Source: Escherichia coli
Lineage (GTDB): Bacteria > Pseudomonadota > Gammaproteobacteria > Enterobacterales > Enterobacteriaceae
Length of the DNA: 64,000 nucleotides
NCBI RefSeq assembly: GCF_003019035.1
Contig: NZ_CP027447.1
Direction: 5' to 3' (one strand)
The notes beneath the pieces are model-generated. The model had not been told where the DNA came from, did not search any database, and saw nothing but the letters and a program-made list of their open reading frames with translations. Within the stretch, counting starts at the first letter, position 1. Each line of letters begins with the position of its first letter. Of this stretch, positions 22,041 through 22,307 are shown one piece after another. The position numbers and the translations under genes are program-made.

Positions 22041-22307
22041 TCACACAATAACTCTGAGATCGCAGATTGTTTTACTTTTACAGCTTCCGTCCCCCCATTG
22101 TTGGGCAAATATAGATTGGGCCAGAGCACGAAAGTTAATACCACGTTCGAACAGCTCCTCCAACAGCACGACAAGATGCCACATACTGCGCCCCAGTCGG
22201 TTCAGTTTACAGACTAGCAGTGCGTCCCCTACCGATAATGTCCTGAGCCGTTTGTTCTGTCCGGGCCTGCTGCCACGGTTATGCGCTGCAGTGGTAACTC
22301 TAAGCAC
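22041..22307 (-). pseudogene. pinH: remnant of a serine recombinase / DNA invertase gene (pinH-like fragment)
   Basis: 88-aa ORF containing GDALLVCKLNRLGRSMWHLVVLLEELFERGINFRAL, the core of the resolvase/invertase catalytic domain, without the N-terminal catalytic Ser region or C-terminal HTH. Confidence 0.6.

What the first reader, a model, noticed from the sequence alone, without database searches (positions are those of the whole stretch)
22041..22307. Serine recombinase (pinH-like) remnant between ypjA and the ypjB/C-like ORF
Only the central part of a resolvase/invertase catalytic domain is present in an 88-aa ORF, without an N-terminal catalytic serine region or C-terminal HTH. It marks a decayed invertible or mobile segment in the ssrA-ileY hypervariable interval.
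Basis: partly seen in the sequence, partly recalled or inferred. Interest (0 to 1): 0.25.

Follow-up and report, generated by a model that had tools for sequence, protein, structure and literature searches.

The report
Known pinH invertase pseudogene relic
This is the already annotated E. coli pseudogene pinH, a dead 175-base internal scrap of a phage-type DNA invertase gene, wedged between a scrap of an IS3-like insertion sequence and the upstream region of the adhesin gene ypjA; it is ordinary genome debris.

Summary
An 88-codon ORF lies at 22041-22307 on the minus strand, and its middle matches serine recombinases: Pfam Resolvase E 6.6e-9, Gin invertase structures E 5e-14, PHROG DNA invertase E 5e-15. 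It is the ortholog of K-12 pinH (b2648), which NCBI's PGAP annotation also flags as a partial recombinase lacking both termini.

Only PinE codons 39-94 of 184 survive (window 22110-22277; DNA similarity 22094-22268). The catalytic serine region, E-helix and HTH are missing from the whole 64-kb window.

New detail on the flanks:
- **5' side:** the break is a fusion to an internally deleted IS3-like element. This consists of the 18-nt left terminal repeat (22346-22363) plus about 30 codons of orfB.
- **3' side:** the break abuts a module upstream of ypjA that has a paralog at ymgJ.

The ORF's first roughly 10 and last roughly 23 codons are therefore not pin sequence in frame, so the ORF is accidental.

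The same colinear structure occurs in 3001 of 5426 complete E. coli genomes. Seven aligned alleles share the same junction sequences but differ by 6-9%, and one carries a frameshift and another a stop.

I found no crossover sites or flanking inverted repeats, so "decayed invertible segment" is plausible ancestry but not demonstrated. Already known, low interest.

The parts
22041..22307 (-). It is a chimera of out-of-frame IS3-like orfB sequence, the pin fragment, and frameshifted tail plus ypjA-upstream module.
   Evidence: ORF length, start and frame are not conserved among alleles.
22094..22268 (-). Pin-derived DNA (the pinH relic proper). It corresponds to pinE nt 124-302, codons 42-101 of 184. 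The protein-level match is robust over 22110-22277 (PinE 39-94). A 4-nt deficit after the codons for '...AQSI' shifts the frame, so the last ~16 nt (22094-22109) are tentative.
   Evidence: PGAP marks 22110-22277 as 'recombinase family protein, missing N-terminus and C-terminus' in the 99.85%-identical strain SCU-301. K-12 pinH b2648 maps to 22041-22280.
22264..22345 (-). Internal fragment of an IS3-family transposase orfB (about codons 58-88, HTH_21 region), with stop codons in this allele. It joins the pin fragment at a shared AGGCC (22264-22268).
   Evidence: 79% nt identity to IS3 over 96 nt, E 6e-19. 77-81% aa identity to IS3 OrfB. Pfam HTH_21 E 1.3e-4 and NCBIfam transpos_IS3 E 6e-3, both below cutoff because the piece is short. 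85% match to an annotated 'IS3 family transposase'.
22346..22363 (-). Left terminal inverted repeat of IS3 (TGATCTTACCCAGCAATA, 18/18). It is fused directly to the orfB fragment, implying a ~520-nt internal deletion between the repeat and a similar sequence inside orfB.
   Evidence: 19/19 exact match to the IS3 end, E 2e-5. The IS3 end is read in L008 next to interrupted ygaQ sequence. The consensus of seven alleles equals the IS3 repeat.
21832..22090 (-). Module upstream of ypjA, about 85% identical to the ymgJ region beside minE. It is a paralogous autotransporter-upstream segment whose edge lies 3 nt from the end of the pin fragment.
17134..21702 (-). ypjA/EhaD adhesin-like autotransporter, the downstream neighbour (start as chosen by PGAP).
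22638..24092 (-). ypjCB (DUF5507 + DUF5508), the upstream neighbour, split by an internal stop in this strain.
24849..24924 (-). tRNA with CAU anticodon (ileY), the right landmark of the interval.
7760..8122 (+). ssrA tmRNA, the left landmark of the interval.

Best explanation
The feature is the pinH pseudogene, a non-functional internal fragment (about 60 of 184 codons) of a Hin/Gin/Pin-type serine DNA invertase gene. It does nothing enzymatically, because the nucleophilic serine region, the E-helix and the DNA-binding HTH are all gone. Its history, inferred from the junctions, runs as follows. An IS3-like element sat upstream of or in the 5' part of the invertase gene, in the same orientation. 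One deletion, with AGGCC microhomology, fused the inside of orfB to invertase codon ~41. A second deletion fused the IS left terminal repeat to orfB at a look-alike sequence. The invertase 3' half was lost where the ypjA autotransporter module begins. All of this happened once, before the E. coli lineages that carry it diverged, and the relic has since drifted neutrally. The 88-aa ORF is a by-product of that drift.
For: Shown: the central-domain-only match to serine invertases. Shown: no other invertase piece anywhere in the window. Shown: orthology with annotated K-12 pinH b2648 and with PGAP partial-pseudogene calls in every strain inspected. Shown: the IS3 terminal repeat and orfB fragment immediately 5'. 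Shown: the ymgJ-paralogous module immediately 3'. Shown: 3001 of 5426 complete genomes carry the whole stretch as one colinear match. Shown: seven aligned alleles share the same junction sequences, with only scattered 1-nt indels. Shown: pairwise diversity in the pin piece (6.4%) resembles that of the flanking non-coding DNA (5.9-9.2%); one allele has a 1-nt frameshift, another an in-frame stop, and the conserved Asp of the KLDRLGR motif is Asn in all. Shown: predicted products in public databases range from 48 to 133 aa in different frames. Inferred: the order of the deletions and the original position of the IS.
Against: No transcription or translation data were available, so expression of a peptide or RNA is not excluded. 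The 18-nt terminal repeat overlaps a stretch that also aligns, more poorly (about 11/18), with orfB itself, so the exact internal-deletion junction is uncertain. The last 16 nt of pin homology (22094-22109) rest on a gapped DNA alignment only. Retention in about 55% of complete genomes could reflect linkage to ypjA and not neutrality alone.
Confidence: 0.93

Rival explanations
1. The relic has been co-opted as part of the regulatory region or 5' leader of ypjA/EhaD. The IS3/pin debris would supply a promoter, an operator or a transcript segment.
For: It lies about 390 nt upstream of the ypjA start codon on the same strand and always travels with ypjA in 3001 genomes. IS ends are known to create promoters (general knowledge).
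Against: The consensus scan found no sigma-70-like promoter on the minus strand between 21600 and 22750, and no terminator. Sequence diversity in the relic equals that of neighbouring non-coding DNA. The ymgJ paralog shows the conserved autotransporter-upstream module ends at 22090, outside the relic. No Rfam family matches.
Confidence: 0.05
2. The 88-aa ORF encodes a functional truncated recombinase-like peptide, for example a dominant-negative partner of prophage Pin invertases.
For: An ORF is open in this strain, and similar ORFs are predicted in many genomes.
Against: The start codon, length and frame differ between alleles. One of the seven aligned alleles has a frameshift and another a stop. 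The N-terminus is out-of-frame IS sequence. The fragment lacks the E-helix that forms the dimer interface in this family (family knowledge from the Gin and gamma-delta resolvase structures).
Confidence: 0.015
3. It is the remnant of a transposon resolvase (Tn3/gamma-delta type), not of a DNA invertase.
For: Both belong to PF00239, and gamma-delta and Tn3 resolvase chains are also hit.
Against: Identity is 70-79% to Pin and Fels-2 invertases, with E 5e-14 to Gin. Resolvases score E about 1e-3 or weaker. DNA identity to pinE is 82%.
Confidence: 0.005

Closest known systems
pinH (b2648) pseudogene of E. coli K-12 MG1655
   Same: Same locus (ypjA - pinH - ypjB/ypjC - ileY), same strand, same breakpoints, and about 94-95% nucleotide identity across the stretch. 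This is the orthologous allele.
   Different: There are point differences only. The window allele has extra stops in the IS3-like orfB fragment and a longer accidental ORF (88 aa against the 240-nt K-12 pseudogene feature). ypjCB is one gene with an internal stop here but is annotated as two genes (ypjB, ypjC) in K-12. The island at ssrA differs: an integrase and MobQ element here in place of CP4-57.
PinE of cryptic prophage e14 (b1158), and Hin/Gin/Cin-type DNA invertases such as the Fels-2 invertase and Mu Gin (PDB 3uj3)
   Same: The surviving 56 codons are 70% identical to PinE residues 39-94 (82% at DNA level). A consensus of the alleles is 79% identical to the Fels-2 invertase. The match covers Gin residues 38-95.
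   Different: These are intact proteins of 184-193 aa with a catalytic serine, E-helix and HTH. They sit beside an invertible tail-fibre segment flanked by 26-bp crossover sites. None of those features is present here.
IS3 (IS3 family insertion sequence of E. coli)
   Same: The 18-nt left terminal repeat is identical, and about 96 nt of orfB is 79% identical.
   Different: Only about 110 nt of roughly 1.26 kb remain. There is no orfA, no DDE domain and no right end. At 77-81% aa identity, the source was a relative of IS3 and not IS3 itself.

Membership tests
Serine recombinase, DNA invertase subfamily (Hin/Gin/Pin/Cin; Pfam PF00239 + HTH_7) | N-terminal catalytic motif with the nucleophilic serine (Y-x-R-V-S-T-x-x-Q, Ser9/10) | tested here: not met
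   tblastn with PinE finds nothing for residues 1-37 in any frame of 21701-22800 or in the whole window. The DNA 5' of codon ~41 is IS3-like.
Serine recombinase, DNA invertase subfamily (Hin/Gin/Pin/Cin; Pfam PF00239 + HTH_7) | Central part of the catalytic domain with the D-R-L-G-R motif | tested here: met
   Pfam positions 47-102/145, E 6.6e-9. Gin residues 38-95, E 5e-14. The motif reads KLNRLGRS, with the Asp replaced by Asn in all seven alleles.
Serine recombinase, DNA invertase subfamily (Hin/Gin/Pin/Cin; Pfam PF00239 + HTH_7) | E-helix (about residues 100-135) and C-terminal helix-turn-helix DNA-binding domain | tested here: not met
   No match to PinE 95-184. Sequence 3' of 22094 belongs to the ymgJ-paralogous module.
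Serine recombinase, DNA invertase subfamily (Hin/Gin/Pin/Cin; Pfam PF00239 + HTH_7) | Pair of inverted 26-bp crossover sites (core AAACC-NN-GGTTT) flanking an invertible segment next to the gene | tested here: not met
   The pattern search gave 5 one-mismatch hits in 64 kb against 2.4 expected, none adjacent to the relic. Inverted repeats in 14000-30000 are short, 72-89% complementary and unremarkable.
Serine recombinase, DNA invertase subfamily (Hin/Gin/Pin/Cin; Pfam PF00239 + HTH_7) | Fis-dependent recombinational enhancer inside the 5' coding region | tested here: inconclusive
   The first ~123 nt of the gene are absent. From my knowledge of hin and gin the enhancer lies in that region, so it is presumably lost. 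No enhancer model was run.
Serine recombinase, DNA invertase subfamily (Hin/Gin/Pin/Cin; Pfam PF00239 + HTH_7) | Intact open reading frame conserved among carriers | tested here: not met
   A frameshift in strain 005008, a stop in S1-ZIM-01-A, and variable starts and lengths.
IS3 family insertion sequence | Terminal inverted repeats starting TG | tested here: inconclusive
   The left repeat is present, 18/18 identical to IS3. No right repeat was found, and tblastn finds no other IS3 piece in the window.
IS3 family insertion sequence | orfA-orfB transposase with a DDE (rve) catalytic domain | tested here: not met
   Only about 30 codons of the HTH_21 region of orfB remain.

The most novel reading that the evidence does not exclude
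The IS3/pin debris is not inert. It has been exapted as part of the promoter or 5' leader that controls the ypjA/EhaD adhesin, which would explain why the identical scar is kept next to ypjA in more than half of E. coli genomes.
Probability: 0.05. Interest if true: 0.25.

Novelty: already known. Interest (0 to 1): 0.06.

Why it matters
It matters little. pinH is already a named pseudogene in the K-12 reference, and the standard NCBI pipeline (PGAP) flags it as a partial recombinase. This check adds a base-level dissection of how the gene was destroyed: an IS3-like element, two microhomology deletions, and an abutting autotransporter module. It also shows the 88-aa ORF should not be annotated as a protein. 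The relic is a stable, ancient scar shared by about 55% of complete E. coli genomes, so it could serve as a lineage marker for the ssrA-ileY island. It is not a live recombination system and opens no outstanding question.

Tried and rejected
- **Apparent intact N-terminus.** A 116-aa database protein (P0008) joins an intact Pin N-terminus to the pinH tail. Its 1050-nt metagenome contig (L004) is covered to 80% or more by none of 5426 complete genomes. It splits into a prophage tail-fibre/pinE part and a pinH/ypjA-upstream part. I treat it as an assembly chimera across the ~150-nt shared pin homology.
- **Flanking inverted repeats and crossover sites.** The searches for inverted repeats and for gix/hix-type crossover cores gave nothing beyond chance.
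- **Structured RNA.** The Rfam scan of 21000-25600 found only the tRNA.
- **Promoters and terminators.** The scan showed nothing on the relevant strand.
- **Literature.** A search for pinH/ypjA found only gene-list mentions.
- **IS3 terminal repeats.** The repeat finder did not detect the imperfect IS3 terminal repeats in L008, so I read the IS end directly from the sequence.
- **Phage origin of ypjCB.** PHROGs gave only a family of unknown function, which does not establish a prophage origin for the neighbourhood.
- **Protein database search.** The search returned only short E. coli fragments. Its word filter evidently skipped intact invertases, so it says nothing about full-length relatives.

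Full report
**Observation**

The window carries an 88-codon ORF at 22041-22307 on the minus strand. Its middle is unmistakably serine-recombinase sequence:
- Pfam PF00239 Resolvase, E 6.6e-9, profile positions 47-102 of 145.
- Gin DNA invertase structures 3uj3/4m6f, residues 38-95, E 5e-14. Gamma-delta and Tn3 resolvases score only E about 1e-3 or weaker.
- PHROG 125 'DNA invertase', E 5e-15.

tblastn with K-12 PinE (184 aa) aligns PinE residues 39-94 at 70% identity to window 22110-22277. Nothing else matches in any frame of 21701-22800 or in the rest of the 64-kb window.

**Identity and context**

The window is 99.85% identical to E. coli SCU-301 over 26.7 kb. In that strain PGAP annotates window 22110-22277 as 'recombinase family protein, incomplete, missing N-terminus and C-terminus'. 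The flanking genes are ypjA/EhaD (17134-21702) and ypjCB, which has an internal stop.

In K-12 MG1655 the same place is the named pseudogene pinH, b2648, between ypjA and ypjB/ypjC. The two alleles align colinearly. tmRNA ssrA lies at 7760-8122 and the CAU tRNA ileY at 24849-24924, so the 'ssrA-ileY interval' placement is also right. The feature is already known.

**Endpoints on the 5' side**

Reading the minus strand upstream of the pin piece gives, in another frame, KFFDLTQQYQRYGAPRLTE*LRA*SYH. The K-12 allele reads the same stretch without the stops. The evidence that this is an IS3-family transposase fragment is:
- Pfam HTH_21, E 1.3e-4, and NCBIfam IS3-family transposase, E 6e-3. Both fall below their cutoffs because the piece is only about 30 codons.
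- 77-81% amino-acid identity to IS3 OrfB residues about 58-83.
- 79% nucleotide identity to IS3 over 96 nt, E 6e-19.
- 85% identity to a plasmid gene annotated as an IS3 family transposase.

Immediately upstream, window 22346-22363 is TGATCTTACCCAGCAATA. This is an exact 18/18 copy of the IS3 left end; including one flanking T, the match is 19/19 with E 2e-5. I read the IS3 end directly in locus L008, where IS3 interrupts ygaQ.

In intact IS3 these two pieces lie about 520 nt apart. The element here therefore suffered an internal deletion between its terminal repeat and a look-alike sequence (TTACCC..A.A) inside orfB.

The orfB-pin junction falls in a shared AGGCC (22264-22268). The IS3 alignment ends at 22264 and the pinE alignment starts at 22268. 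Because the junction joins the inside of an IS to the inside of the invertase gene, it is a deletion scar and not an insertion site.

**Endpoints on the 3' side**

The protein-level match ends at ...AQSI (22110). A gapped DNA alignment carries pinE similarity to nt 302, which is window 22094. It has a 4-nt deficit that shifts the frame, and I regard those last 16 nt as tentative.

From 22090 downward the sequence is about 85% identical to the ymgJ region beside minE. This is a paralogous module that precedes autotransporter genes, and its edge lies three bases from the pin fragment.

The 88-aa ORF is therefore a chimera. About 10 codons are out-of-frame IS sequence, about 56 are pin codons, and about 23 are frameshifted tail plus module sequence.

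**Population evidence**

A 754-nt query spanning all the junctions matches as a single colinear piece in 3001 of 5426 complete E. coli genomes, at 89-100% identity. The remaining genomes match only through the ymgJ paralog or not at all.

Seven alleles were aligned: this window, K-12, S1-ZIM-01-A, FSIS11705876, U90, 005008 and MMC-J-0091. All share the same junction sequences, differing only by scattered 1-nt indels elsewhere.

| Segment | Mean pairwise difference |
|---|---|
| pin piece | 6.4% |
| IS piece | 9.2% |
| ypjCB-IS spacer | 8.1% |
| ymgJ-like module | 5.9% |

The pin piece is thus no better conserved than the surrounding non-coding DNA. One allele has a 1-nt frameshift in the pin frame and another has a stop. 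The conserved Asp of KLDRLGR is Asn in all seven. Database proteins predicted from this locus range from 48 to 133 aa and use different frames. All of this indicates a single ancient set of rearrangements followed by neutral drift.

**Is it a decayed invertible segment?**

The closest intact relatives are phage tail-fibre invertases. The Fels-2 invertase is 79% identical to a consensus of the alleles, and PinE is 70% identical at protein level and 82% at DNA level. A phage or mobile ancestry is therefore a fair inference.

Nothing else of such a system remains, however:
- **Crossover cores:** none near the relic. The window has 5 one-mismatch hits against 2.4 expected.
- **Flanking inverted repeats:** none convincing.
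- **Other invertase or IS3 pieces:** none in the window.
- **Neighbouring gene:** ypjCB matches only a PHROG family of unknown function.

That part of the interpretation remains unproven.

**False lead**

Protein P0008 appears to join an intact Pin N-terminus to the pinH tail. Its 1050-nt metagenome contig is covered to 80% or more by no complete genome. It divides cleanly into a prophage pinE part and a pinH part. It is best explained as an assembly chimera across the shared ~150 nt.

**Other checks**

There is no Rfam family in 21000-25600 except the tRNA. The consensus scan found no minus-strand promoter or terminator in 21600-22750. The literature search found only gene-list mentions.

**Verdict**

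The added value is the base-level anatomy of its destruction and the conclusion that the ORF is accidental. Novelty: already known. Interest: low.

Noticed in passing
window 55374-57190 (+): A two-gene insertion sits between emrB and luxS: a 235-aa RNA_ligase (PF09414, E 1e-27) followed, with a 4-nt overlap, by a 370-aa protein with an AAA_33/KTI12-like kinase domain (E 1e-31). It looks like an RNA-repair or possibly defence cassette. It has no PADLOC match and, as far as I recall, is not part of the K-12 gene order.
   Followed up: partly
window 21832-22090 and 21767-21886 (-): The ~260 nt upstream of ypjA is about 85% identical to the ymgJ region beside minE. It includes a conserved 39-aa 'hypothetical protein' (WP_001120794.1) with paralogs at the other locus. 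This looks like a duplicated autotransporter-upstream module of unknown role.
   Followed up: partly
window ~8290-17000: The island at the 3' end of ssrA carries an integrase, a MobQ relaxase, a small HTH regulator and hypothetical genes, in place of prophage CP4-57 of K-12. It looks like an integrative mobilisable element.
   Followed up: no
window 22638-24092 (-): ypjCB is split by an internal stop into a DUF5507 part (118 aa) and a DUF5508 part (349 aa). Other strains have one intact 484-aa gene, and K-12 annotates two genes, ypjC and ypjB.
   Followed up: partly
window 25481-27733 (+): The ygaQ-like alpha-amylase gene is intact here (750 aa), whereas ygaQ is a pseudogene in K-12. In locus L008, IS3 interrupts this same gene.
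   Followed up: no
window 21887-22640, and ypjA to ygaQ generally: Alleles of this stretch differ by 6-9% between E. coli strains, and the window is only 95% identical to K-12 from ypjA through ygaQ. As I understand it, that is far above usual core-genome divergence, which suggests old allelic lineages or recombination from outside.
   Followed up: no
locus L004 (ENA metagenome scaffold, 1050 nt): This public metagenome contig fuses a prophage tail-fibre/pinE 5' half to the pinH tail and ypjA-upstream region. No complete genome supports the join, so it is probably a chimera seeded by the ~150-nt pin homology.
   Followed up: yes
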